Shown here in pieces: positions 10,336 to 19,421 of a stretch of 32,000 nt of DNA. This DNA comes from Candidatus Omnitrophota bacterium. Lineage in GTDB: Bacteria > Omnitrophota > Gorgyraeia > Zapsychrales > JANLHA01. Under the pieces are notes generated by a model. It ran no database searches, was not told the DNA's origin, and worked only from the letters and a program-made list of their open reading frames with translations. A program made the translations under genes and the position numbers. Where the stretch lies: positions 1,410,001 to 1,442,000 of the forward strand of contig OY759724.1 of the NCBI GenBank assembly GCA_963662715.1, in the 5' to 3' direction. The stretch's first letter is position 1. Each line of letters begins with the position of its first letter.

Positions 10336-10410
10336 GGCCCCATCGTCTAGCCTGGTCCAGGACGTATGGTTCTCAGCCATAAAACGCCGGTTCAAATCCG
10401 GCTGGGGCTA
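10336..10410 (+). tRNA. tRNA-Glu, anticodon CTC
   Basis: GGCCCCATCGTCTAGCCTGGTCCAGGAC..., typical tRNA-Glu D-arm. Anticodon stem TATGG/CCATA with loop TTCTCAG (anticodon CTC). T-arm CCGG-TTCAAAT-CCGG. Acceptor GGCCCCA/TGGGGCT plus A. Confidence 0.9.
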
Positions 10411-10411
10411 T

Positions 10412-10451
10412 AAATATAAGGGGACACCCAAAAGGGTGTCCCCTTATATTT
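10412..10451 (+). terminator. Perfect 18-bp hairpin immediately 3' of tRNA-Glu (terminator-like)
   Basis: AAATATAAGGGGACACCC - AAAA - GGGTGTCCCCTTATATTT. Confidence 0.6.
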
Positions 10452-10923
10452 AAAACTCCAACTCTTTGACCGGCAATCGGAGATATCGGCGACCGAGCGT
10501 TGCGAGGCAATTCAGAAAAGGTCATCCGAGCTGAGCGAGGAAGTGGTTGAGCAGGGGCGAAACCATTCCAAATCCGGCAGTATAAAAGGGGGACTCTTTT
10601 GAATCCCCGTTATTATTTCTTCTAACTCAGAAATTTTCCTTTTTGTATCCCCAAAACCATGGAAATATTACAGGAAAATAGATTTTTTGCGAGGCCTTTT
10701 CAAGAGTGCTTGTAATTCAAAAAATTTTATATTTATGTTAAGAAAAGTCAGATTTTGGTCGTATCGGGCCATTGACAGAGAGAAAAATAAGGATGATACT
10801 GTATGATATTTCCAGGTGTTTTGAAAGATCGGTAATATTATGCGTCGTAACTATTTAGCAGTATAAAAAAGGACAAAAGAGATTTTTTATTCAATAAAAA
10901 CCGGATATTTGGAAAAAAACACA

Positions 10924-11000
10924 CTATAACAATACATCACGATATCACCCAATAACAAAATTCAATATTAATAAGTACGACGTAGAAGAAATTGTTAGAC
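10924..11000 (+). repeat. attC-like recombination site (site 0) ending in core GTTAGAC
   Basis: Starts CTATAACAAT (inverse-core-like) and ends AATTGTTAGAC. TAACAAT/ATTGTTA pair as the base of an imperfect palindrome. GTTAGAC fits GTTRRRY and lies 7 nt before the ORF at 11008. Confidence 0.5.
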
Positions 11001-11007
11001 GAAGAAA

Positions 11008-12021
11008 ATGATGAAAAAACTCATAGAAGATTTTCAAAAAATAGCCACCACGATAACAGAGCTAACAAAAATATCTGACTTAACAGCAGAGCATGATATT
11101 TTATCAAATGCTGAACGACATATCGAAATAACAGGCTATGACAATTGGGATGGCGGGTCAGATATCCACACAGTATACTTGCAAATACCCATCGAGCTTT
11201 ACTCTAAATATGAGTCAAATTTAGATAAAATAGAAAAGACAATTAATTCTAAGTTTCAACCCATTCTTCGCAATTATCCGAATGAGTATATAAACGATGT
11301 TGTAATTACACCGCGCCTTGTACAAGCGAAAGCTTCTGTTCAAACAGAATACACTCAACAAGAAAAACATGCATTTATAAGCTATCAGACAGCTGATAAG
11401 CATGTTGCAGGAAAAATAAAACAATTATTAGAGGGTATTGGTATTGAAGGTTTTTTAGCACATGAAGACATTGACGTTTCATTAGAATGGCAAGATGAAA
11501 TATTAAAAAATATGGCAAAATCTTCTCTATTTATTTGCTTGTTAAGCAGTAATTATTTAAATTCTTTTTGGTGCATACAAGAATCGGGAATGGCAAGGTT
11601 TAAGAACTCTACAGTCATCCCGTTGACATTAGATGGCACTGTTCCGCCCGGTTTTATTTCAAAGTATCAAGCAGTAAGAATTGATCCTGAAAGACCTAGA
11701 ATACATGATCTTATCCCTGGATTGATGAAATATAATAAATTTGATGTCTTAGAAATAATTATAGAAGTAATTGGATCGTCGAGAAGTTTTCGTGGCGCAG
11801 AGTCTAATTTTGAATTGATTTTGCCATATTTAAATGATTTAACCGAGAAACAGGCTAAAAGTTTGCTAGAAAAAATAAGACAAAACAATCAAGTGCATCA
11901 TGCAAGTCTTTGTGCAAATGAATACATCCCAAAAGTGCTTAAGAAATATGGCAATTTAATCTCTGAAGATGACTTGGAGTTTTTAAAAGATAGATGTAAA
12001 GAATATAATGGAGACGTCTAA
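11008..12021 (+). CDS. TIR-domain protein (unknown N-terminal ~115 aa, TIR, helical C-terminal ~120 aa)
   Basis: TIR core at residues ~120-210: HAFISYQTADKHVAGKI...LFICLLSSNYLNSFWCIQESG...VIPLTLDG. The SxWCxxE motif carries the conserved catalytic Glu (E192, nt 11581-11583). Confidence 0.8.
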   Translation: MMKKLIEDFQKIATTITELTKISDLTAEHDILSNAERHIEITGYDNWDGGSDIHTVYLQIPIELYSKYESNLDKIEKTINSKFQPILRNYPNEYINDVVITPRLVQAKASVQTEYTQQEKHAFISYQTADKHVAGKIKQLLEGIGIEGFLAHEDIDVSLEWQDEILKNMAKSSLFICLLSSNYLNSFWCIQESGMARFKNSTVIPLTLDGTVPPGFISKYQAVRIDPERPRIHDLIPGLMKYNKFDVLEIIIEVIGSSRSFRGAESNFELILPYLNDLTEKQAKSLLEKIRQNNQVHHASLCANEYIPKVLKKYGNLISEDDLEFLKDRCKEYNGDV

Positions 12022-12090
12022 CAACTCAATCCAGCGGACCTCCGGGGCAGCTGCGCGCCCCTTCGAGCCGCTGATTTCGTTGCGTTATAG
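12016..12090 (+). repeat. attC-like recombination site (site A)
   Basis: GTCTAAC (12016-12022, fits RYYYAAC and overlaps the stop codon) is the exact reverse complement of GTTAGAC at 10994. The GC-rich imperfect hairpin pairs CAGCGG/CCGCTG and GGGGC/GCCCC, with bulged bases. It ends GTTATAG (12084-12090). Confidence 0.6.
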
Positions 12091-12111
12091 GAAATAAATA
12101 AAAAAGGAGAA

Positions 12112-12786
12112 ATGCTCATGTCTCGAAGTCCATATAAAATGCCTTCTGTGTTTGTAGCCTGCCCTTATGATGAAAAGAAATTTAAATTTTCTTCGTTTAA
12201 GAAAGAATTGGCGTCCCTTCCTTTTAGCATCGAATATGCTGATACAAATTTGGAAACAAAGCACTTAATGGAAAAAATAAAACGTCTTATAAAGGCTGCA
12301 GATTTTTCTTTCTTTGACTTGTCATCTTGGAATCCAAACGTTGCACTTGAATTAGGTTTAGCAGAAGGAGTTAAATCTTCTTATTATATTTTGGTAAACT
12401 CGAAGATGAACAAAGATGTTCCTTCCGATATTAAAGGGATTCAAAGAATAGAATATTCGTCCCTTCAAGGAAATGAGAGAAGTCTCCGTTCCCAAATAAT
12501 TCAATATTTCTTTAAAAAGAATTATTCTCTGACAAAAGATTTGTGGACAAAATTGTCTCGACATAAAAATGCTCATAAAATATTTGATTTTGGGTTGCGT
12601 GTTCTCGCCTTTCTACGAGATCACGATGCCATAGAACATGCCGATTTTAAAGAAATTTCTAGAGGACTATATGTTAGGCTTGAGGATCAGGAACATGTTA
12701 TAACAACTCTTATAAATATAAAGGCGTTAAAAAAGGCCTATGGTCGCGAAGAATACTTATTAACAAAATCTATATATAAGAAATGA
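12112..12786 (+). CDS. TIR-like / nucleoside 2-deoxyribosyltransferase-like domain protein with a possible C-terminal winged-helix
   Basis: SVFVACPYD...KIKRLIKAADFSFFDLSSWNPNVALELGLAEG resembles the (V/I)F(I/V)...AD..I.D.....NV.(F)ELG.A.G signature of COG4271-type TIR-like and deoxyribosyltransferase-like folds. The AAGGAGA RBS at 12104-12110 favours the second ATG (12118) as the start. Confidence 0.45.
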   Translation: MLMSRSPYKMPSVFVACPYDEKKFKFSSFKKELASLPFSIEYADTNLETKHLMEKIKRLIKAADFSFFDLSSWNPNVALELGLAEGVKSSYYILVNSKMNKDVPSDIKGIQRIEYSSLQGNERSLRSQIIQYFFKKNYSLTKDLWTKLSRHKNAHKIFDFGLRVLAFLRDHDAIEHADFKEISRGLYVRLEDQEHVITTLINIKALKKAYGREEYLLTKSIYKK

Positions 12787-12788
12787 CC

Positions 12789-12830
12789 CTATAACAATTC
12801 ATGTGTTCTATCGTAGATGAAAATTTATAA
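12789..12830 (+). repeat. Short, degenerate attC-like site (site B)
   Basis: CTATAAC (12789-12795, 3 nt after the stop) is the exact reverse complement of GTTATAG at 12084. AATTCAT pairs with ATGAA(AA)TT. The expected GTT core is TTTATAA (12824-12830), so the site is probably inactive. Confidence 0.4.
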
Positions 12831-12833
12831 AAA

Positions 12834-14465
12834 ATGACGTCACCTAAAAAGCGCGCTCAAATACTGCAAGATCATCTTAAAAAAGGTAATACTTTTTTCC
12901 CTCCTTTTACTTTTAAAGAAGGCATTGGTCGGTTTGACGAAATCAACTGGCGGGCAGACTTTGTTCCAGAGCTAATTTGGATTGCATTATTGATTGAGGA
13001 ATATGGATTCGATAAATCAAAAAATTTAGCCTGTGCTTTGGCAATATTGTCAATGCAACTCCGTCAAACTGAACAACTACCAGATTTTGGAATGGTATCA
13101 GCCTATGAACCACTAGGGGAAACGACAAAAAGGAATATTAATAAACACTTAGATTCAAAGGGAGTGTTGCAAGAAATATCAAAGCCATTGGTGCCATTGG
13201 TAACACTCTATCCTGATTGCCCATTAAGTTTTTTGATCGAAGGAGAAAAGAATAGATGTTCTGTCGATCACGCCAGCACAAAGGTTGCTCCAATTCTTGA
13301 AGAATGTCTTTACCGTGGTGAAAAATTGCCAACTCTTGTTCAAGCTGTTTATTATGAGCTGTCAATCGCTTCCGGAAAATTGAAATTCGTTGCTCCATTA
13401 GGCCCTCACAATACAGATCCTATTAAAGAATACCCCAATACAGACGAATCAAAAAGGTTGGCTAGCATGCTTAGGGCCAACGCTTGTCATATGACAGCAA
13501 TGGGCCATTCAAAGAAATGGGTTCAATATTTCTGGAGAAAAGGTCGTGATATTGGCCCTTGTGTGCCTAAAAAATCTTCTGACCTTCATCTGAATGATTT
13601 CCCTCAAGAATTTATTTTATACAACACAGAATGTTTCAAACAATATCATGATGGTTGTAATAAGCTATGGGAATATATCGAGCGAAACTATGTGATTGAT
13701 TTTTACTCTCCACTGCGTGACGAAATTCGCCTTAGTCTATTTTGCCGTATTTATCGCCTTACTGTCCATGTCGTAAGTTTTATCCCTAATTGGACAGAGG
13801 ATATAGCTGAAATATTTTTGCGAATGATTATAGAATCATATATTTACTATATGTGGTTCAAAAAAAATGGCACGGAAGAATCATATGAGAAATTCTATGT
13901 GTATGGCCTTGGGCAACAGAAATTAAGAAAAGAACACATATCAAACTATCTCAAGAAGCAAGGTGTTCCCGAGGAGGAGATAGAACAACAGAATCCCGGT
14001 CTCTCATTTCTTAAAAATCATAAAATGGATGAATTTATTCCAGTGAATATTGGAAATCCGCTGGACAAAAATCTTCGAATTATTGCAGAGGAGGCAGATT
14101 GCCGTGAAATTTACTCATTAATTTTCTCACCAGCGAGTTCTGCTATCCATGGAATGTATGATTCCTTAGAAAGGTTCTATTTGAAAACATGCCTAAATCC
14201 ATTCCATTGTTACCATAAAGTTCCATATTATTGGTCCAAATCAGCTGTGTCGAGTTATGGGGTGATTAACTGCCTTGAATTCACTGACTGGATTTTTGCT
14301 GATTTGGTGAAGGATTTAAATGGTAAATTGCCGGATAAAATGCCAGGTGAAATCTATATTGAGAACCTAAACGACAATAAGGCGCTCGAGGAGTTTACCA
14401 AAAGAGATGATGTGCAGGAGTGGATTAATTTATCTGCACAATTTAGAAACAATGTAAAGGAGTAA
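12834..14465 (+). CDS. Hypothetical protein, 543 aa, no domain recognised
   Basis: Long uninterrupted ORF in an AT-rich context, on the same strand as its neighbours and 4 nt after site B. Predicted mostly helical. No catalytic motif I can name and no obvious SD. Confidence 0.6.
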   Translation: MTSPKKRAQILQDHLKKGNTFFPPFTFKEGIGRFDEINWRADFVPELIWIALLIEEYGFDKSKNLACALAILSMQLRQTEQLPDFGMVSAYEPLGETTKRNINKHLDSKGVLQEISKPLVPLVTLYPDCPLSFLIEGEKNRCSVDHASTKVAPILEECLYRGEKLPTLVQAVYYELSIASGKLKFVAPLGPHNTDPIKEYPNTDESKRLASMLRANACHMTAMGHSKKWVQYFWRKGRDIGPCVPKKSSDLHLNDFPQEFILYNTECFKQYHDGCNKLWEYIERNYVIDFYSPLRDEIRLSLFCRIYRLTVHVVSFIPNWTEDIAEIFLRMIIESYIYYMWFKKNGTEESYEKFYVYGLGQQKLRKEHISNYLKKQGVPEEEIEQQNPGLSFLKNHKMDEFIPVNIGNPLDKNLRIIAEEADCREIYSLIFSPASSAIHGMYDSLERFYLKTCLNPFHCYHKVPYYWSKSAVSSYGVINCLEFTDWIFADLVKDLNGKLPDKMPGEIYIENLNDNKALEEFTKRDDVQEWINLSAQFRNNVKE

Positions 14466-14541
14466 TAAATAACAACGGAAAGAATCATCTATCAACGGCA
14501 TTAAGAGCGACGGCAAAAAATCGCCGAAAGATAAATAAAAC

Positions 14542-14943
14542 ATGAATATTTTTAAAAATGAAATTTATTGTGTAGTTTTTCCTGAAGAATTTCGATTTAA
14601 GTCATATGGGAAAGAGAAAAATCTAAAGACATTTATTGATGTCTCGGAGGGAAAGAATCCTAAGGTAATCGCTGTAGGTGAAGATGTTTCTCATCAAGAA
14701 CCATTTAATAGAGTGTATTTATTTAAAACTACTGAAAATAATTTAAAATTAAAGAAAAGTGAATATTTAACTGCCTATTTTAAGTATGCTTTTAAAAGCG
14801 TTTTTAATAAATTTGTTGTAGTAAGACCAACAATAATTTTTGAGAACACATCCAGCTTGAGTTCAATCTTAGGCGGTTATGAGAAAGATATCCTTGAGCA
14901 CGCATCATTGAGTGCAAGTGCTTTAAAATGTATATTTAAATAA
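14542..14943 (+). CDS. Hypothetical protein, 133 aa
   Basis: ORF on the same strand, 76 nt after the previous gene, with a double stop TAATAA. No recognisable motif. Confidence 0.4.
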   Translation: MNIFKNEIYCVVFPEEFRFKSYGKEKNLKTFIDVSEGKNPKVIAVGEDVSHQEPFNRVYLFKTTENNLKLKKSEYLTAYFKYAFKSVFNKFVVVRPTIIFENTSSLSSILGGYEKDILEHASLSASALKCIFK

Positions 14944-15126
14944 TAAACGGCTAACAAGTCATCCATGAAAACAGTCATCTGGTCAAGCATAAAATAGAAA
15001 GGCCAAATCATCCATTCGCGCTATATTCCCCCAAAGGACTTATGCGCACAATAGCGTATTATGACAGGGCGTGCCAATCACTACAACGGCCTTAAATATG
15101 CCAGAGTTGTTAACAGCATCACCCAT

Positions 15127-16134
15127 TTATACTGACCGATATTTATACTCACAGTTGTTTTTCAAAACAGCAAAAACAGATTTTAACAGCTTATGAGCAA
15201 CAGCAACTATAGCGACACCGTAATCTTTTTTAGTTCGAATCTTCTGAAAATGAGTTTGTAAATATATATCACGGCGCACAGCGGTTTGAGCCGCTTCGAC
15301 AAAAGCAGTGCGTAAGTATTTATTGCCATCTTTAGTAATAGGGCCTGAATAATAGCTTTGACCTGATTGATGGACACGAGGAACAATGCCGGCGTAACGG
15401 GCAAGTTTATGCGCATTCTTAAAGCGGGAGATGTCACCGATTTCAGCCAGGATGACATGAGCAAGAATAACCCCTATACCAGGGACAGTGTAGAGTAACC
15501 GAGCCTTAGAATCGACTTTGATGTTCAGACGGAGACGAGAATCGATTTTGTAAATATGCCGGGAGAGAATATCGATAAAGGAGAGATAATCGGCAATCAT
15601 GGAAGAATAAGGTTGCCGTAAGGATAATTGATTTAAGAAGAGTTTGCCGGAAACACCGAAGAGGTCGCTGAAAGAATGCTGAATACCCTGATAATCAAGG
15701 ATAGCATGAATACGATTTTTGAGGCTAGTGCGAATGGCGATCAAACGGTGGCGATACCGCATCAAAGCACGAGCATCACGATGAAAGCGGGAAACACGGT
15801 AAGCTTTGGGCAAGAGATCGGCTCTCAAGAGGTCAGCTAAAACAGAAGCAGAGATTTTATCGGTTTTAATGCGTTGTTCGGCAATAGCCTTAGTTCGCGC
15901 GGTATGAGCGAGAGAAACATCTAAGCCGGCCTCTTCAAGCAAGTCACCGAGCCAAAGGTCAAAGCCAGAGGCTTCCAGTGCGACAGAAGAGTTATGAGGA
16001 AGGGCTTTAAAATAATTTTTCATAGCATCTTTCTGAAAGTGATATAATTTTGTTTGATCGATGCGGTTGCCATTCTGATCTTTAACGACAACATACGAAT
16101 ACTTTTTGTGTTGATCGATTCCGATGTAATACAT
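15127..16134 (-). CDS. IS110-family transposase/recombinase
   Basis: MYYIGIDQHKKYSYVVV (DEDD RuvC-like N-terminus), ...ALEASGFD..., C-terminal YAGIVPRVHQSGQS / ITKDGNKYLR (IS116/IS110/IS902 domain). Start moved to the ATG at 16134, which has an AGGAGG RBS; the track's 16179 start lacks one. Confidence 0.9.
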   Translation of the reverse strand: MYYIGIDQHKKYSYVVVKDQNGNRIDQTKLYHFQKDAMKNYFKALPHNSSVALEASGFDLWLGDLLEEAGLDVSLAHTARTKAIAEQRIKTDKISASVLADLLRADLLPKAYRVSRFHRDARALMRYRHRLIAIRTSLKNRIHAILDYQGIQHSFSDLFGVSGKLFLNQLSLRQPYSSMIADYLSFIDILSRHIYKIDSRLRLNIKVDSKARLLYTVPGIGVILAHVILAEIGDISRFKNAHKLARYAGIVPRVHQSGQSYYSGPITKDGNKYLRTAFVEAAQTAVRRDIYLQTHFQKIRTKKDYGVAIVAVAHKLLKSVFAVLKNNCEYKYRSV

Positions 16135-16330
16135 ACGTGCCTCCTTTCTGGAAGGTTGTGGTTTTTGGCTTAAAATCATTATACGCCTTCCAGAGGCACG
16201 TTTTCATACTATCACTACAGCGGTGCGCTTCGGCACCTTCGGCAGCCTCAAGACCCAGTGGGCGTGTGGCGTATCTCCTCAAAAATTGGACTGAAAGTAA
16301 TTAGGGAGACAAAATAGCTTTTAATATAAA
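16135..16330 (-). ncRNA. Candidate IS110 bridge/guide RNA region in the 5' non-coding end
   Basis: Dense secondary structure. ACGTGCCTC..CTGGAAGG (16135-16156) pairs with CCTTCCAG-AGGCACGT (16185-16200) and occludes the RBS. A second hairpin is GGTGC-GCTTCG-GCACC (~16223-16238). The position matches the IS110 subgroup, where the ncRNA lies upstream of the recombinase. Confidence 0.35.
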
Positions 16331-16351
16331 AGGTCACCCGGGGCTATATAT

Positions 16352-16385
16352 CCCCCTGCAATTGATCAATTGCAGGGGGTTTTTG
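16352..16385 (+). terminator. Perfect 28-nt palindrome plus T5 (plus-strand intrinsic terminator-like)
   Basis: CCCCCTGCAATTGA|TCAATTGCAGGGGG followed by TTTTTG. Sits at the AT-rich/GC-richer transition. Confidence 0.55.
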
Positions 16386-16458
16386 TTTAGGGTAAAATGG
16401 GAAGAAATCAAATGAACCGGCAGGGTTTTATCGTCTCGCAATAATATACAGCAATAGC

Positions 16459-16887
16459 ATGGGTTTCCTTAAACATAGTTTTTCCAAGAACAACCATAAA
16501 ACAAGAAAGTTGAATTCCCAGGGCCCCTTGTTTTGGAGTCAAGTGTTCTTCATTATGGCGGTCATTGACGTTTCTATCATTTTCTTCAGGAAAAGCTGGA
16601 GCGCTGAGGCCGCTATCACGCCGTCCATTGAGGTCTTTCTGGGCATCACGATTTTGGGTTTAAGAAAATATGAAAAAGTCGTGAGGGTCTGTTTGATATG
16701 CCTGTTTTTTCTTACCGGTATCATCATGTTGCCCGGGGGGGATTTAAGGTGTCTCAGGGACTTGGGAGAAGAGGGGGTGTTCCTCCGGGCCCTGGTTTTA
16801 TTTTTGGGGGAATTTATGGCCGCGGCCGGCATAGCTGTTTTACTTAAGTATTCTCGGAGATCAAATTACGGCGGCACGTCCGGTTAA
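16459..16887 (+). CDS. Hypothetical membrane protein
   Basis: Three to four hydrophobic segments (VFFIMAVIDVSIIFF, VFLGITILGL, VCLICLFFLTGIIML, LVLFLGEFMAAAGIAVLL). Weak RBS and uncertain start. Confidence 0.4.
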   Translation: MGFLKHSFSKNNHKTRKLNSQGPLFWSQVFFIMAVIDVSIIFFRKSWSAEAAITPSIEVFLGITILGLRKYEKVVRVCLICLFFLTGIIMLPGGDLRCLRDLGEEGVFLRALVLFLGEFMAAAGIAVLLKYSRRSNYGGTSG

Positions 16888-16914
16888 ATCAACAGTATTA
16901 GAAGGGGATTTGTC

Positions 16915-18606
16915 ATGATAGAAGATGTTAAATTGAAAGAATGGTATCAAAGCAATAAAGAAAATGAAAGGAATGGTCTGGCAAAGATATTAGACGTGGA
17001 GTATGCGCATATAAAGCTGCGGGAGGAAGATGACCTGTATATTACTGCTGAAGGGTTGGCCTTTATCGATAATTTAATGCCGGAGAATTTTTGGACCGAC
17101 AAAGAATGGGTGAGGGAGAATTCAGAGCGGTTGTCGGGGACAAGCACTGTTTATAAGATCAGGACCAAAAAAGTGGGCGGTAAGCAGATAGAGCTTGTCG
17201 TTAAATGGAACCGGATGGGCCAGGATGTGCCCGGGGCGGAAGACTGTGAAGACTTGATGAGCGCTGAATTTAACAGCCCTTTTGAGGAATTTTCATTGGT
17301 TTTTGAATTAAGGAAAATAGTTCATGATTCAATGGAGAATATTTTTATACAGAGGCCTTTGGCGATATTCGTTCCTTCCGAATCTGTCGAGTTGTGGCAG
17401 AGCGGCAGAAAAGAGTATAAGATGCGGAACAAGATCGAGTCGCACAAGGATATTATGTTGGACATGTTCCGTTCTTACGCGGTTATATATTTATGGGTTC
17501 CGGGGATCGATTTAACGCAGGCCCTGAAAAAGGATTCTTTAAAGGAGAAAGACCTGAAACTGTTGACTCGGGATGCGCAAAAGAAAATGTTCGAAAACGG
17601 TTATGTGGTTAAAGATCATAAGCCCCAGCATGTCATTGTTAACTCGGGGAAGGAAGGAGGCTTGAAAAGAAACGCAAACGGGGAAATAGAATATGCTTTG
17701 GTTGATTTTGAATTGCTTCAGCGGACTTTCGAGAAGGAAGAAATGGTTAAGAAGAACAAACGCACGGATTATTTAAAAAGACAAAAAGACAGGTTTAATA
17801 TAGAAACCCCGAAGAAGTTTTACCCGTATTTGAACCACGTGAGTATTTTTGATGTCGCGTATATCTTTGGGCATGTCGAAAGCACGAAAGGAAGATTGTG
17901 GGTTTTGGGAAAAGACCCCTGTTTGTTCGACTATTTCCTCCCGGAACGATGGGAGCAGAGGCCCAGGACGAAAATATCGGTTCTCAATGCCATGTATTAC
18001 ACGATTTCCAAAGATAATATCCACCTTGTCTGGAAAGTGTCCAAGGTCGGCTCCAGGCCCGACATGGATCCTTTTAAAGAAGATGAAAAGAAAATACTGG
18101 ATTATGGCTATAACAGCCCTTTTGAAGAAGCTGCGATAGCCCTTGAACTTGAGCAAAAAGGAATACCCACGATCAGTCCGAGAGCGATATATATGACTTC
18201 GAATGAAATAGACATGTCGGCACATTTGCAGGATAATTCGCGTTACGATAATCATAAAAATTTGTTTGATCCTGACGGGGCGGCCATATTAAGAAAAGAC
18301 CGCGATTACATAAGTATTTGGGGATACTGGCGCGGACCCATCGAAAAACTGGCTCAAAGAGACGAAGATTATCATGAGGGGATGAATATTTTAAAGGCAT
18401 ACAGAGAAAGAATTATCAATGAACAGCAATATTTAAACCTGCTGCAGACAGCAAAACAAAGATTGCTGCATGCGGGCTTTGAGGACCTTAATCTTAGGGG
18501 AAACCATTTGATGATTTCTTTTGACAGTCACAATAATCTTATTATGGATGATTCAGGCCTGCCTGAAATTAGAATATGTAATTTTGAGTTTCTTAAGAGA
18601 ATTTAA
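16915..18606 (+). CDS. Protein with two tandem RIO/Kdo(WaaP)-like atypical kinase-fold modules
   Basis: Internal duplication: FNSPFEEFSLVFELRK ... DHKPQHVIVN ... LVDFELL, and YNSPFEEAAIALELEQKGIPT ... EDLNLRGNHLMIS ... ICNFEFL. These resemble the N-lobe helix, catalytic loop and DFG-equivalent of Kdo/RIO-type kinases. Confidence 0.4.
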   Translation: MIEDVKLKEWYQSNKENERNGLAKILDVEYAHIKLREEDDLYITAEGLAFIDNLMPENFWTDKEWVRENSERLSGTSTVYKIRTKKVGGKQIELVVKWNRMGQDVPGAEDCEDLMSAEFNSPFEEFSLVFELRKIVHDSMENIFIQRPLAIFVPSESVELWQSGRKEYKMRNKIESHKDIMLDMFRSYAVIYLWVPGIDLTQALKKDSLKEKDLKLLTRDAQKKMFENGYVVKDHKPQHVIVNSGKEGGLKRNANGEIEYALVDFELLQRTFEKEEMVKKNKRTDYLKRQKDRFNIETPKKFYPYLNHVSIFDVAYIFGHVESTKGRLWVLGKDPCLFDYFLPERWEQRPRTKISVLNAMYYTISKDNIHLVWKVSKVGSRPDMDPFKEDEKKILDYGYNSPFEEAAIALELEQKGIPTISPRAIYMTSNEIDMSAHLQDNSRYDNHKNLFDPDGAAILRKDRDYISIWGYWRGPIEKLAQRDEDYHEGMNILKAYRERIINEQQYLNLLQTAKQRLLHAGFEDLNLRGNHLMISFDSHNNLIMDDSGLPEIRICNFEFLKRI

Positions 18607-18824
18607 CTGAAATATAATGATTCGCCGGTCTGACAGTTCAGATAGGATCATCCGGGCGGCGCGGGGGAGTGTTTGCCCGGCAGCGAAACCATCCCTGATT
18701 TTTCCCGAAGCGCAACAGGGCCGCAAGGTGAATGCCCGGTCCCCTGGCCCATAATTTTTTATTGTCTCCCCAAAATTTCCGGGCTAGAATATGGCGCCTG
18801 AAAAAGGCTAAGAAAGGACCGTTT

Positions 18825-19421
18825 ATGAATATGTTGTTCAACTGCGTGCTCGCATTGTTGGCGCTGGTCAATCCCATCAGCAAGATATTTATTTTGTCTT
18901 CCCTGGCTGCGGAATCAGACCCCCAGGAGATTAAAAGGATTTCCGTGAAAGCGACCTCGGTTGCGGCTGGCATGCTGATCGTATTCGCGCTGTTGGGGAA
19001 TTTTATCCTGCAGAATATCTTTCACGTTAAAATTTATGCGTTTCAGATAGTCGGAGGTGTTGTCCTTTTCCTCCGGGGGCTTCAGGCCCTGAACAAAGGT
19101 TTGTTTCTTGAGCTGGAAGCTCATCAAAAACTGGAAGATGCTTCCATCGTTCCGCTGGCATCCCCGATGATCGCCGGCCCGGCCACATTGACAGCCGCCA
19201 TAGCTTTCCCGTCTCAATACGGCATGCTCATAACCTTGACGGCTATTATGATGGCCTTGTTGATCAACTTGTTTATCATGTTGTCGGCCAAGAAAATCAG
19301 CGGTGTTTTGAGCGAGTACAATCTCATGGGGGCCTTGATACGGATTACCGGCCTTGTTGTCGCCACCATCGGTGTTCAGATGATATTGGACGGTACGGCG
19401 GAATATATCGCCGCTCTGTAA
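18825..19421 (+). CDS. MarC-family (UPF0056) integral membrane protein
   Basis: MNMLFNCVLALLALVNPISKIFI... (NPI motif) and six hydrophobic segments. The ATG at 18825 has an AGAAAGGA RBS; the track's upstream extension from 18732 is non-membrane junk. Confidence 0.7.
   Translation: MNMLFNCVLALLALVNPISKIFILSSLAAESDPQEIKRISVKATSVAAGMLIVFALLGNFILQNIFHVKIYAFQIVGGVVLFLRGLQALNKGLFLELEAHQKLEDASIVPLASPMIAGPATLTAAIAFPSQYGMLITLTAIMMALLINLFIMLSAKKISGVLSEYNLMGALIRITGLVVATIGVQMILDGTAEYIAAL

What the first reader, a model, noticed from the sequence alone, without database searches (positions are those of the whole stretch)
10924..12830. Integron-type gene cassettes without an integrase: cassette ends verified by reciprocal 7-mers
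In integron cassettes the crossover falls between G and TT of the core site GTTRRRY. A cassette therefore begins with TTRRRY, and the inverse core (RYYYAAC) of its own attC is the reverse complement of that core. This pattern is seen twice here.

- GTTAGAC at 10994-11000, 7 nt before the TIR ORF, pairs with GTCTAAC at 12016-12022, which overlaps that ORF's stop codon.
- GTTATAG at 12084-12090, 14 nt before the next RBS, pairs with CTATAAC at 12789-12795, 3 nt after that ORF's stop.

Each inverse core opens an imperfect palindrome with bulged bases, for example CAGCGG...GGGGC-loop-GCCCC...CCGCTG in site A. All junctions share the box TAACAA/TTGTTA.

The ORFs start 4-30 nt after the core and have no promoter of their own. 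No intI gene or attI is present in the window, so this would be a CALIN-type array. I did not exhaustively count how often these 7-mers occur elsewhere in the window.
Basis: partly seen in the sequence, partly recalled or inferred. Interest (0 to 1): 0.75.

Follow-up and report, generated by a model that had tools for sequence, protein, structure and literature searches.

The report
Lone integron cassette carrying TIR gene
One gene for a TIR-domain (phage-defence-type) protein is a genuine integron gene cassette with a textbook attC site, stranded without an integrase inside a small island next to a tRNA gene. The other proposed cassette ends are only relics, so this is an ordinary example of a known phenomenon.

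Summary
GTTAGAC, GTCTAAC and GTTATAG each occur once in 32 kb.

Site A (12016-12090) is a canonical attC. A covariance model trained only on 11 class-1-integron attCs scores it at 31.3 bits (E 1.6e-6), full length, with exactly the predicted ends. Nothing else in the window is significant. It has the R''/R' cores, an unpaired spacer and two extrahelical bases 6 bp apart, as in aadA1. Its arms recur in more than 120 genome stretches, in attC arrays beside IntI genes, including in Omnitrophota, the host phylum.

The unit 10995-12084 (TIR gene plus attC) is therefore a real cassette inserted at a G|TT.

Site 0 (2.7 bits) and site B (1.1-9.6 bits) fail the model and do not fold. They share arms and look like relics.

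By IntegronFinder's rule of two or more attC sites this is a single-attC element (SALIN), not a demonstrable CALIN.

The low-GC block (10486-16339) is absent from a related genome and lies between copies of the tRNA-Glu 3' end. No integrase gene is in the window.

The parts
10336..10410 (+). tRNA-Glu(CTC). Its 3' end (AATCCGGCTGGGGCTATA) serves as the repeated attachment-type sequence for the island.
   Evidence: ARAGORN and Rfam tRNA, 57.4 bits. Repeats aligned.
10486..16339 (.). Segment absent from a related Omnitrophota genome. The low-GC part (about 10600-15113, roughly 33% GC against 45% outside) carries four same-strand genes, followed by an IS110 element. Degenerate copies of the tRNA 3' end lie at 10573-10590 and 16335-16350.
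   Evidence: blastn of the window against relative L149: synteny stops at 10485 and resumes at 16340. Composition.
10772..10800 (+). Sigma-70-like promoter match (TTGACA-17-GATACT). It is a candidate external promoter for the promoterless genes downstream.
   Evidence: It is a consensus match only, and such matches are not enriched over shuffles.
10924..10994 (+). Site 0, the left part of the pre-insertion site X. It runs CTATAACAAT...57 nt...ATTG and ends at the G of the crossover. With TTATAG (12085-12090) restored it has perfect 10-bp terminal inverted repeats. It is not a canonical attC.
   Evidence: R1 score 2.7 bits. Not listed by R2. Fold -4.6 kcal/mol, z -1.1. Arms shared with site B.
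10995..12084 (+). Gene cassette 1 (1090 bp) in linear form. It starts with TTAGAC and ends with the G of the attC R' core.
   Evidence: The start TTAGAC is the exact complement of R'' GTCTAA. Both 7-mers are unique in the window. The attC is confirmed.
11008..12021 (+). ORF1, a 337-aa TIR-domain protein. The TIR domain spans about aa 110-226 and is flanked by extra N- and C-terminal regions. The stop codon lies inside R''.
   Evidence: Pfam TIR_2, 5e-17. PADLOC ThsB-like, SpbK and PD-T7-3 C-terminus. NCBIfam TIR families, all below their cut-offs. 320 homologues.
12016..12090 (+). attC site A (75 nt, 60% GC).
- R'' 12016-12022
- spacer 12023-12027
- L'' 12028-12039, with extrahelical C12031 and A12038 (G and T on the bottom strand)
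- variable loop region 12040-12066
- L' 12067-12076
- spacer 12077-12083
- R' 12084-12090, with the crossover between G12084 and T12085
   Evidence: CM R1 31.3 bits, E 1.6e-6. CM R2 50.4 bits, E 2.5e-12. Arms match catB3 and aadA1 attCs and environmental attCs.
12085..12829 (+). Cassette-like unit 2. It comprises TTATAG, ORF2 (12118-12786, 222 aa, weakly TIR/CAP12-like) and the relic site B.
   Evidence: An 80%-identical homologue in L143/L144 begins its DNA similarity at the equivalent G|TTGTAG. ORF2-like genes lie in a genuine cassette in L040. Pfam PF10137 is weak at 7.8e-5.
12789..12829 (+). Site B. It has CTATAAC+AATTC (R'' and spacer consensus) and then a short AT-rich tail ending in TTTATAA instead of GTTATAG. 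It is a relic or non-functional attC-like site.
   Evidence: R1 1.1 bits. R2 9.6 bits, E 3. Fold z +0.7. Similarity to X, p about 0.004.
12834..14465 (+). ORF3, a 543-aa DUF5677 / PADLOC DitA-like protein. It is followed by AAATAACAACGG at 14467.
   Evidence: Pfam 1.4e-18 and PADLOC 1.8e-28. No attC found in this region.
14542..14943 (+). ORF4, 133 aa with no family match. It is followed by GGCTAACAAGTC at 14949.
   Evidence: for the lack of family match. No attC by CM. The downstream region does not fold.
15127..16179 (-). IS110-family RNA-guided transposase gene. The element spans roughly 15114-16334, including a 5' non-coding region of about 155 nt. It is not part of the integron machinery.
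   Evidence: NCBIfam NF033542, 229 bits. Pfam. Only about 23% identity to IS1111-attC and IS5075 transposases.

Best explanation
The window holds one intact, promoterless integron gene cassette (10995-12084). It consists of a TIR-domain gene followed by a canonical 75-nt attC.

The cassette sits without any integron integrase inside a 5.8-kb low-GC island. That island lies between repeats of the tRNA-Glu 3' end in an Omnitrophota chromosome.

The likely history is as follows.
- An integron integrase acting in trans excised the cassette from an array. The integrase came from elsewhere in this genome or from a transient element.
- The cassette's folded bottom-strand attC then recombined with a G|TT in front of ORF2, at ...AAATTG|TTATAGG....
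- This produced the observed reciprocal junctions: TTAGAC at the left end, and GTCTAAC...G|TTATAG at the right end.

ORF2, and perhaps ORF3 and ORF4, are older cassette-derived genes whose attC sites have eroded. They keep the R''+spacer box (xxxTAACAAxxC) after each stop. For ORF2, a reciprocal core and a diverged partner repeat also remain.

The genes are probably transcribed from an upstream island promoter and probably act in phage defence.

Shown: the attC identity, the cassette ends, the absence of intI from the window, and the island's absence from a relative. Inferred: the integrase-mediated insertion, the relic status of the neighbouring sites, expression and function.
For: **Site A is an attC.**
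- Model R1 was built only from plasmid class-1 attCs. It gives site A 31.3 bits, E 1.6e-6, over the full model length with the exact predicted ends. The next hit in 64 kb searched is 11.9 bits.
- Model R2, built from 150 environmental attCs, gives 50.4 bits, E 2.5e-12.
- Controls: 0 hits at E<=1 in 46.8 kb of non-array DNA and none in another 46.8 kb.
- By direct reading, the left half of site A is GTCTAAC|AACTC|AAT(C)CAGCGG(A)C. This has the same layout and the same 6-bp spacing between extrahelical bases as aadA1, GTT(C)AAGCCG(A)C.
- The stop codon lies inside R'', as in catB3, aadB, aacA4 and dfrA12.

**The same attC type occurs in real integrons.**
- The left-arm pattern is found in more than 120 genome stretches. 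R1 finds 206 attCs in arrays in the 80 listed loci.
- Full-length IntI homologues lie alongside in six of those loci, including Omnitrophica UBA6215.
- The nearest attCs also share the unselected right arm, GCCGCTGATTTCG.
- The UBA6215 array has the same signature: 30-39% GC cassettes and 74-77-nt GC-richer attCs.

**Cassette ends.** The reciprocal cores are statistically rare.

**Island context.** The island is absent from the relative L149 and is bounded by tRNA 3'-end repeats.

**ORF2 as a former cassette.**
- The family's 5' boundary falls at G|TT in L143.
- ORF2-like genes lie in a genuine cassette in L040.

**Literature.** Lone cassettes (SALINs) and integrase-mediated insertion at genomic GWT sites are documented (bioRxiv 10.1101/2022.09.11.507474).
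Against: - Sites 0/X, B, C and D fail both covariance models and do not fold better than shuffles. The claim that the neighbours are eroded cassettes therefore rests on short motifs and one modest alignment (p about 0.004).
- The core of unit 2, GTTATAG, does not fit GTTRRRY.
- Homologues of ORF1 and ORF2 elsewhere are mostly not next to canonical attCs. Some sit in ordinary defence islands.
- The models are surrogates for IntegronFinder's model, and their E-values are rough.
- The rest of the 3.36-Mb genome could not be searched, so the source of the integrase is unknown.
Confidence: 0.72

Rival explanations
1. This is a true CALIN. Sites 0/X and B, and perhaps the sites after ORF3 and ORF4, are functional attC sites of a divergent AT-rich type, with long R-box repeats and little L-box stem, which standard models miss. 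On this reading two to four cassettes remain mobilisable.
For: - ORF2 has a reciprocal core, GTTATAG with CTATAAC.
- X has perfect 10-bp terminal inverted repeats.
- X and B share both arms.
- A TAACAA box follows all four stops.
- L143 and L001 have comparable TAACAA...TTGTT inverted repeats next to homologues.
- Island composition matches Omnitrophota cassette arrays.
Against: - Scores are 1.1-9.6 bits for site B and 2.7 bits for site 0, both non-significant, against at least 26 bits for 206 real attCs.
- There is no significant fold.
- Site B lacks the crossover G (TTTATAA).
- No GTT core exists after ORF3.
- A pattern search for X-type sites in metagenomes returned only two irrelevant hits.
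- Genuine Omnitrophota arrays use canonical 74-77-nt attCs.
Confidence: 0.13
2. This is the remnant of a complete integron. Site X is the attI site and the 310 nt upstream (10612-10923) is the old platform with the cassette promoter. The intI gene was deleted. The TIR cassette is the most recent capture at attI.
For: - The only pristine cassette is in first position, as expected for capture at attI.
- A promoter-like site lies upstream at 10772-10800.
- The genes are all on one strand and are tightly packed.
Against: - There is no trace of an IntI reading frame anywhere in the window (tblastn E>3; Pfam).
- The arms of X are 57 nt apart, unlike the adjacent L and R boxes of attI1. This comparison rests on my own knowledge.
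- The upstream neighbour is a tRNA gene and its repeats, not an integrase remnant.
Confidence: 0.08
3. There is no integron involvement. The island is an ordinary tRNA-linked defence island, site A is a terminator or REP-like hairpin, and the 7-mer matches are chance.
For: - The island is tRNA-linked and absent from a relative.
- The folding energy of site A alone is not significant.
- Homologues of the TIR gene occur in non-integron defence islands.
Against: - The CM scores, with independent training.
- The extrahelical-base geometry is identical to aadA1.
- Both arms are shared with attCs that sit next to IntI genes.
- There is no T-run and no terminator call at this position.
- The reciprocal-core probabilities are about 1e-3 each.
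Confidence: 0.02

Closest known systems
[quoted passage not shown] Source: Loot and colleagues, bioRxiv 10.1101/2022.09.11.507474.
   Same: One CDS plus one model-positive attC, no integrase nearby, and an insertion junction at G|TT outside a recognisable attI or attC site. The cassette depends on an external promoter.
   Different: Here the target G|TT lies at the end of a 77-nt element with attC-like terminal repeats. The downstream gene also has cassette-like ends, so the target may be an eroded attC rather than a naive genomic site. The host is an uncultured Omnitrophota bacterium.
[quoted passage not shown]
   Same: Same-strand, compact, low-GC, promoterless genes with no intI gene, and attC-type cores at the gene ends.
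   Different: A CALIN needs at least two attC sites that pass the model. Only one passes here.
attC sites of class 1 integron cassettes: aadA1, aadA2, aadB and catB3.
   Same: By my count from the sequences, the left arm of site A is 20/24 identical to catB3's. The R''-5 nt-L'' layout is the same, the two extrahelical bases are 6 bp apart, and the stop codon lies inside R''.
   Different: Site A has a longer variable region (75 nt against 60 nt). Its R' half now derives from the neighbouring unit (GTTATAG). The cargo is a TIR protein, not a resistance gene.
Anti-phage defence cassettes of sedentary chromosomal integrons (bioRxiv 10.1101/2024.07.02.601686).
   Same: A defence-type gene packaged as a small single-gene cassette.
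   Different: It is not in an array with an integrase, and its function is untested.
tRNA-linked genomic or defence islands.
   Same: The block lies immediately 3' of a tRNA gene, is bounded by repeats of the tRNA 3' end, has atypical GC, carries defence-type cargo and an IS, and is absent from a relative.
   Different: The island has no tyrosine integrase gene of its own.
Single-gene TIR defence proteins (SpbK, ThsB-like).
   Same: A TIR_2 domain. The PADLOC SpbK model aligns over aa 3-196.
   Different: There is no ThsA partner. All named family matches fall below their curated cut-offs. The extra C-terminal region resembles only the tail of PD-T7-3.

Membership tests
Integron attC site (site A, 12016-12090) | Inverse core R'' (RYYYAAC) and core R' (GTTRRRY) at the two ends, in inverted orientation. 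| tested here: met
   R'' is GTCTAAC. The cassette's own R', reconstituted as G + TTAGAC = GTTAGAC, fits GTTRRRY. The present R', GTTATAG, is a hybrid with the next unit.
Integron attC site (site A, 12016-12090) | L''/L' stem separated from the R box by an unpaired spacer, with extrahelical bases on the bottom strand. | tested here: met
   AAT(C)CAGCGG(A)C pairs with GCCGCTGATT. The spacers are AACTC and TCGTTGC. The extrahelical bases are 6 bp apart, as in aadA1 (sequence reading; CM alignments).
Integron attC site (site A, 12016-12090) | Significant score against an attC covariance model. | tested here: met
   R1 gives 31.3 bits, E 1.6e-6. R2 gives 50.4 bits, E 2.5e-12. These are surrogate models; IntegronFinder's own model was not available.
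Integron attC site (site A, 12016-12090) | Recombined by an integron integrase as folded single-stranded DNA. | not testable with these tools
   This needs an in vivo or in vitro recombination assay.
Integron gene cassette (10995-12084) | One promoterless ORF followed by its attC, with the first six bases complementary to R''. | tested here: met
   TTAGAC at 10995-11000 complements GTCTAA at 12016-12021. The ORF starts 7 nt after the core. No promoter-like site lies between the core and the ATG.
attC site (site 0, 10924-11000, and site B, 12789-12830) | Significant covariance-model score and an L-box stem. | tested here: not met
   With R1, site 0 scores 2.7 bits and site B 1.1 bits. With R2, site B scores 9.6 bits (E 3) and site 0 is not listed. 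Folds have z +0.6, +0.7 and -1.1.
CALIN | At least two attC sites within a few kb. | tested here: not met
   Only one site passes in 32 kb on both strands with filters off.
CALIN / SALIN | No integron integrase nearby. | tested here: met
   No Phage_integrase or IntI match in any ORF of at least 90 aa tested. tblastn with IntI1 against the window gives E>3. The rest of the genome was not searchable.
Complete integron | intI gene, attI site and cassette promoter adjacent to the array. | tested here: not met
   There is no intI gene. The region upstream of the first cassette is a tRNA gene plus repeats.
tRNA-linked genomic island | Insertion at a tRNA 3' end with flanking direct repeats, and absence from a related genome. 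| tested here: met
   L149 lacks 10486-16339. The tRNA 3'-end repeat is perfect over 18 nt (19 nt with the preceding mismatched position) in the relative and degenerate at 10573 and 16335 in the window.
tRNA-linked genomic island | The island's own tyrosine or serine integrase. | tested here: not met
   None found in the island. The only recombinase is an IS110 DEDD transposase.
IS1111-attC group (for the adjacent IS) | Close relationship to the attC-targeting IS1111 elements and insertion inside an attC. | tested here: not met
   About 23% identity to the IS1111-attC element in L003 and to IS5075. NCBIfam classifies it as generic IS110. No attC at its junctions.
Thoeris defence system | A ThsB-type TIR protein together with a ThsA effector. 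| tested here: not met
   Only the TIR domain matches, and it falls below the curated cut-offs. No SIR2, Macro or SLOG partner is among ORF2-4.

The most novel reading that the evidence does not exclude
Sites X and B represent a functional, non-canonical class of integron recombination site in Omnitrophota. The class would be AT-rich, with roughly 10-bp terminal inverted repeats around TAACAA/TTGTTA and no L-box or extrahelical-base stem. On this reading integron integrases can build and shuffle arrays through weakly structured sites that current attC models cannot see, and defence islands at tRNA genes can be assembled cassette by cassette.
Probability: 0.07. Interest if true: 0.6.

Novelty: new member of a known kind. 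Interest (0 to 1): 0.3.

Why it matters
The finding is a clean natural example of a lone integron cassette carrying a defence-type TIR gene. It has precise G|TT junctions and lies outside any integron, in a candidate phylum (Omnitrophota).

It supports two recently described ideas:
- integron cassettes leak into chromosomes at non-classical sites;
- integron cassettes are a reservoir of phage-defence genes.

It also shows that the attC type familiar from clinical aadA and catB cassettes is shared across very distant phyla.

It does not reveal a new mechanism. Its practical lesson is that matches between core 7-mers alone over-call attC sites in AT-rich DNA. Only one of the three proposed sites survived a structural model.

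Tried and rejected
- **Exact-protein look-ups.** Look-ups of window proteins, including the 100%-identical P0001, found no contig. The source genome could therefore not be walked.
- **Published attC models.** The published taxon-specific attC covariance models (PMC8352920 supplement) are Infernal files that cannot be loaded here. I built my own models instead.
- **IS1111-attC idea.** I considered that the adjacent IS110 element marks an attC, as IS1111-attC elements do. This was rejected: about 23% identity and no attC at its ends.
- **Weak hit at 12698-12732.** It scores 11.9 bits with R1 and 16.3 bits with R2 (E 0.03). I rejected it as an attC because it lies in a C-terminal coding stretch covered by ORF2 homologues of 222-226 aa.
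- **Metagenome scan for X-type sites.** It returned only a zinc-transporter coding repeat and an unrelated long palindrome.
- **Contexts of homologues.** The neighbourhoods of ORF1 and ORF2 homologues (L001, L014, L015-22, L143-146) contain no canonical attC. They gave only indirect support, from the G|TT boundary in L143.
- **Folding.** Folding energies were uninformative even for the genuine attC.
Full report
**1. The observation**

- GTTAGAC (10994), GTCTAAC (12016) and GTTATAG (12084) each occur once in the 32-kb window. CTATAAC occurs four times (10188, 10924, 12789, 18108).
- I fitted a first-order Markov model to the low-GC island. The chance of finding the reciprocal 7-mer within 30 nt of the relevant stop codon is about 0.0007 for the first pair and about 0.0013 for the second.
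- The 10-mer CTATAACAAT is expected 0.009 times in the island and is seen twice.
- TAACAA lies within 18 nt of the stop in 4 of the 51 ORFs of at least 100 aa in the window. Those 4 are precisely the four island ORFs.

The pattern is therefore not chance. Two details in the finding are overstated. TTGTTA is present only at the first junction. Only site A is a convincing palindrome, because sites 0 and B fold no better than shuffled sequence.

**2. Site A is a canonical attC**

I took 11 genuine attC sites from class 1 integron arrays on PLSDB plasmids: aadA1, aadA2, aadB, catB3, blaVIM-4, aacA4, arr-3, cmlA5, dfrA1, dfrA12 and dfrA27. I aligned them and built covariance model R1 with the textbook R-box/L-box structure. 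Site A was not in the training set.

Searching the whole window on both strands with filters off gave these results.
The next hit scored 11.9 bits.
- The left half of the site reads GTCTAAC|AACTC|AAT(C)CAGCGG(A)C, then the variable region. The right half reads GCCGCTGATT|TCGTTGC|GTTATAG.
- The two unpaired top-strand bases (G and T on the bottom strand) are 6 bp apart, exactly as in aadA1, GTT(C)AAGCCG(A)C.
- The left arm is 20/24 identical to the catB3 attC.
- The ORF's TAA lies inside R'', as it does in catB3, aadB, aacA4 and dfrA12.

These came from many phyla.
- In the 80 listed loci, R1 found 206 attCs arranged in arrays.
- Full-length IntI homologues (40-65% identical to IntI1) lie beside them in six loci.
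- The closest attCs (L041, L096, L084, L034) also share site A's right arm, GCCGCTGATTTCG, which was not part of the search pattern.
- Model R2, built from 150 of these environmental attCs, scores site A at 50.4 bits, E 2.5e-12.
- Two control sets of 46.8 kb of non-array DNA gave no match at E<=1.

**3. Cassette 1**

Given the attC, the cassette in linear form runs from T10995 to G12084 (1090 bp).
- It begins with TTAGAC, the complement of R'' GTCTAA.
- It has a 13-nt leader, a single ORF (11008-12021) in the canonical orientation, and no promoter-like match between the core and the ATG.
- Its own reconstituted core, G+TTAGAC, fits GTTRRRY.

ORF1 is a 337-aa TIR-domain protein.
- Pfam TIR_2 matches at 5e-17.
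- PADLOC matches ThsB-like and SpbK models, plus the C-terminal part of PD-T7-3.
- NCBIfam TIR families match below their cut-offs.

**4. The other proposed sites**

- Site 0 (10924-11000) scores 2.7 bits with R1, aligning only the two R boxes. R2 does not list it.
- Site B scores 1.1 bits with R1 and 9.6 bits (E 3) with R2, aligning only CTATAAC+AATTC.
- Nothing is found after ORF3 or ORF4.
- None of these regions folds better than shuffles.
- A weak hit at 12698-12732 (E 0.03 with R2) lies in a C-terminal stretch of ORF2 covered by homologues of 222-226 aa. I discount it.

Even so, these sites do not look like random sequence.
- Deleting cassette 1 in silico restores a 77-nt element X, CTATAACAAT...ATTG|TTATAG, with perfect 10-bp terminal inverted repeats.
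- ORF2 begins with TTATAG and is followed by CTATAAC+AATTC.
- X and B share both arms: CCCAATAACAAAATTC...CGTAGAAGAAATTGTTATA against CCCTATAACAATTC...CGTAGATGAAAATTTATA. The local alignment has p about 0.004 against shuffles.
- In an 80%-identical ORF2 homologue (L143/L144), DNA similarity to the window starts at the equivalent G|TTGTAG. That position is preceded by an unrelated element with TAACAA...TTGTT inverted repeats.
- In L040, two ORF2-like genes lie in one cassette between two model-positive attCs.

The most economical reading is that ORF2 was once a cassette and that X and B are eroded or non-canonical sites. Site B has lost the crossover G, reading TTTATAA. I could not show that they function. 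A metagenome pattern search for X-type sites found only two irrelevant matches.

**5. Context**

The best named matches to the host's CTP synthase are Candidatus Omnitrophota, at about 78-82% identity. A related 3.35-Mb genome, whose CTP synthase is 93% identical, is syntenic with the window up to 10485 and again at 16340-16400. It lacks 10486-16339.
- In that relative, the tRNA-Glu 3' end AATCCGGCTGGGGCTATA is repeated about 170 nt downstream.
- In the window, degenerate copies lie at 10573 and 16335 and bracket the low-GC block.

The cassette therefore lies in a tRNA-linked island that also holds:
- ORF3 (DUF5677 / DitA-like);
- ORF4 (no family match);
- an IS110-family RNA-guided transposase. 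This transposase is only about 23% identical to attC-targeting IS1111 elements.

Composition points the same way. The island genes have 28-37% GC and site A has 60%, against 45% for the rest of the window. The cassette array of the complete Omnitrophica UBA6215 integron has the same signature: 30-39% GC cassettes and 74-77-nt GC-richer attCs.

No integron integrase or other tyrosine recombinase is encoded in the window.

**6. Mechanism**

Shown:
- an intact attC;
- exact cassette ends at G|TT;
- no integrase in the window;
- island-specific presence.

Inferred:
- An integrase supplied in trans inserted the circular cassette by recombining its folded bottom-strand attC with the G|TT at the end of X. 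X would be either an old attC or a genomic attG-type site. Such insertions and the resulting lone cassettes (SALINs) have been described experimentally and in genomes (bioRxiv 10.1101/2022.09.11.507474).
- Expression would depend on an upstream promoter. The candidate is at 10772-10800.
- A defence role is suggested only by domain content and by the known enrichment of defence genes in cassettes (bioRxiv 10.1101/2024.07.02.601686).

**7. Classification and novelty**

- As an attC and a gene cassette, every sequence-level criterion is met.
- As a CALIN, the criterion of two or more attC sites was tested and not met.
- As a complete integron, the criteria are not met.

The best label is a SALIN-type lone cassette embedded in a tRNA-linked island, with probable relic cassettes beside it. 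This is a new member of a known kind. It is useful as an example but not surprising.

The residual novel possibility is that X and B represent a functional, unstructured class of attC site. I put that at about 7%.

**8. Limits**

- The covariance models are my surrogates for IntegronFinder's model. Calibration was shortened, so E-values are rough.
- R2's training set was enriched for site A's left arm, so R1 is the independent test.
- The remainder of the source genome could not be searched for intI or further attCs.

Noticed in passing
window 10336-10625 and 16318-16400; L149 16868-17095: The tRNA-Glu 3' end (AATCCGGCTGGGGCTATA) is repeated downstream in both this genome and a relative, each time followed by a hairpin. 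The window has two extra degenerate copies that bracket a 5.8-kb insertion. The site therefore looks like a recurrent integration hotspot, although the island has no integrase gene.
   Followed up: partly
window 15114-16334 (-): A single-copy IS110-family RNA-guided transposase (NF033542, 229 bits). Its 5' non-coding region of about 155 nt (16180-16334) abuts the tRNA-end repeat and is a candidate bridge/seek RNA. The element's ends and target were not determined.
   Followed up: partly
window 16459-19421: Two ORFs without any Pfam match (142 aa and 563 aa) and a MarC-family gene. None has a DNA match in the related genome L149, so this looks like a second strain-specific segment to the right of the island.
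   Followed up: no
window 12698-12732 (+): A 35-nt mini-palindrome, TTATAACAACTC...AGGCGTTAAAA, matches only the attC R boxes and spacers (R2 16.3 bits, E 0.03). It lies inside the conserved 3' coding part of ORF2. It is probably spurious, but it sits 60 nt upstream of the relic site B.
   Followed up: yes
L001 5000-9000 (JGI Ga0495385_0000503): A same-strand gene array around a 63%-identical TIR homologue. Its intergenic regions carry long hairpins whose arms are tandem heptamers (for example GTCACAAGTCACAGGTCACAAGTCACAG...TGTGACGTGTGAC). They are not attC by the covariance model and remain unexplained.
   Followed up: no
L014 4015-4090 and 5478-5545: A 62%-identical TIR homologue next to smpB is flanked by direct repeats of about 75 nt. 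Each repeat contains the palindrome TTTCTAACC...GGTTAGA, and GTTAGGT lies 18 nt before the gene's start. The arrangement is cassette-like, but the repeat type is different.
   Followed up: no
L040 2048-3391 (Chlorobiaceae MAG): One integron cassette, bounded by attCs of 60.3 and 27.8 bits, carries two tandem ORF2-like genes (150 aa and 231 aa). The next cassette encodes an 873-aa protein. ORF2's uncharacterised family therefore does travel in integrons.
   Followed up: partly
L092 1949-8000 and L042 (Omnitrophica UBA6215, DISH01000005.1): A complete integron in the host phylum. The intI gene (47% identical to IntI1) sits in a 50-57% GC backbone. It is followed by at least 15 cassettes of 30-39% GC with 57-77-nt attCs (mostly 74-77 nt) that share site A's arms.
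   Followed up: partly
L003 1279-2322: On plasmid pGZAF1_VIM, an IS1111-attC-type IS110 element interrupts the smr cassette's attC just after TAACAATTCAT. The attC-like homology of sites 0 and B in the window ends at the same relative position (CTATAACAAT[A/T]CAT). This may be a coincidence.
   Followed up: no
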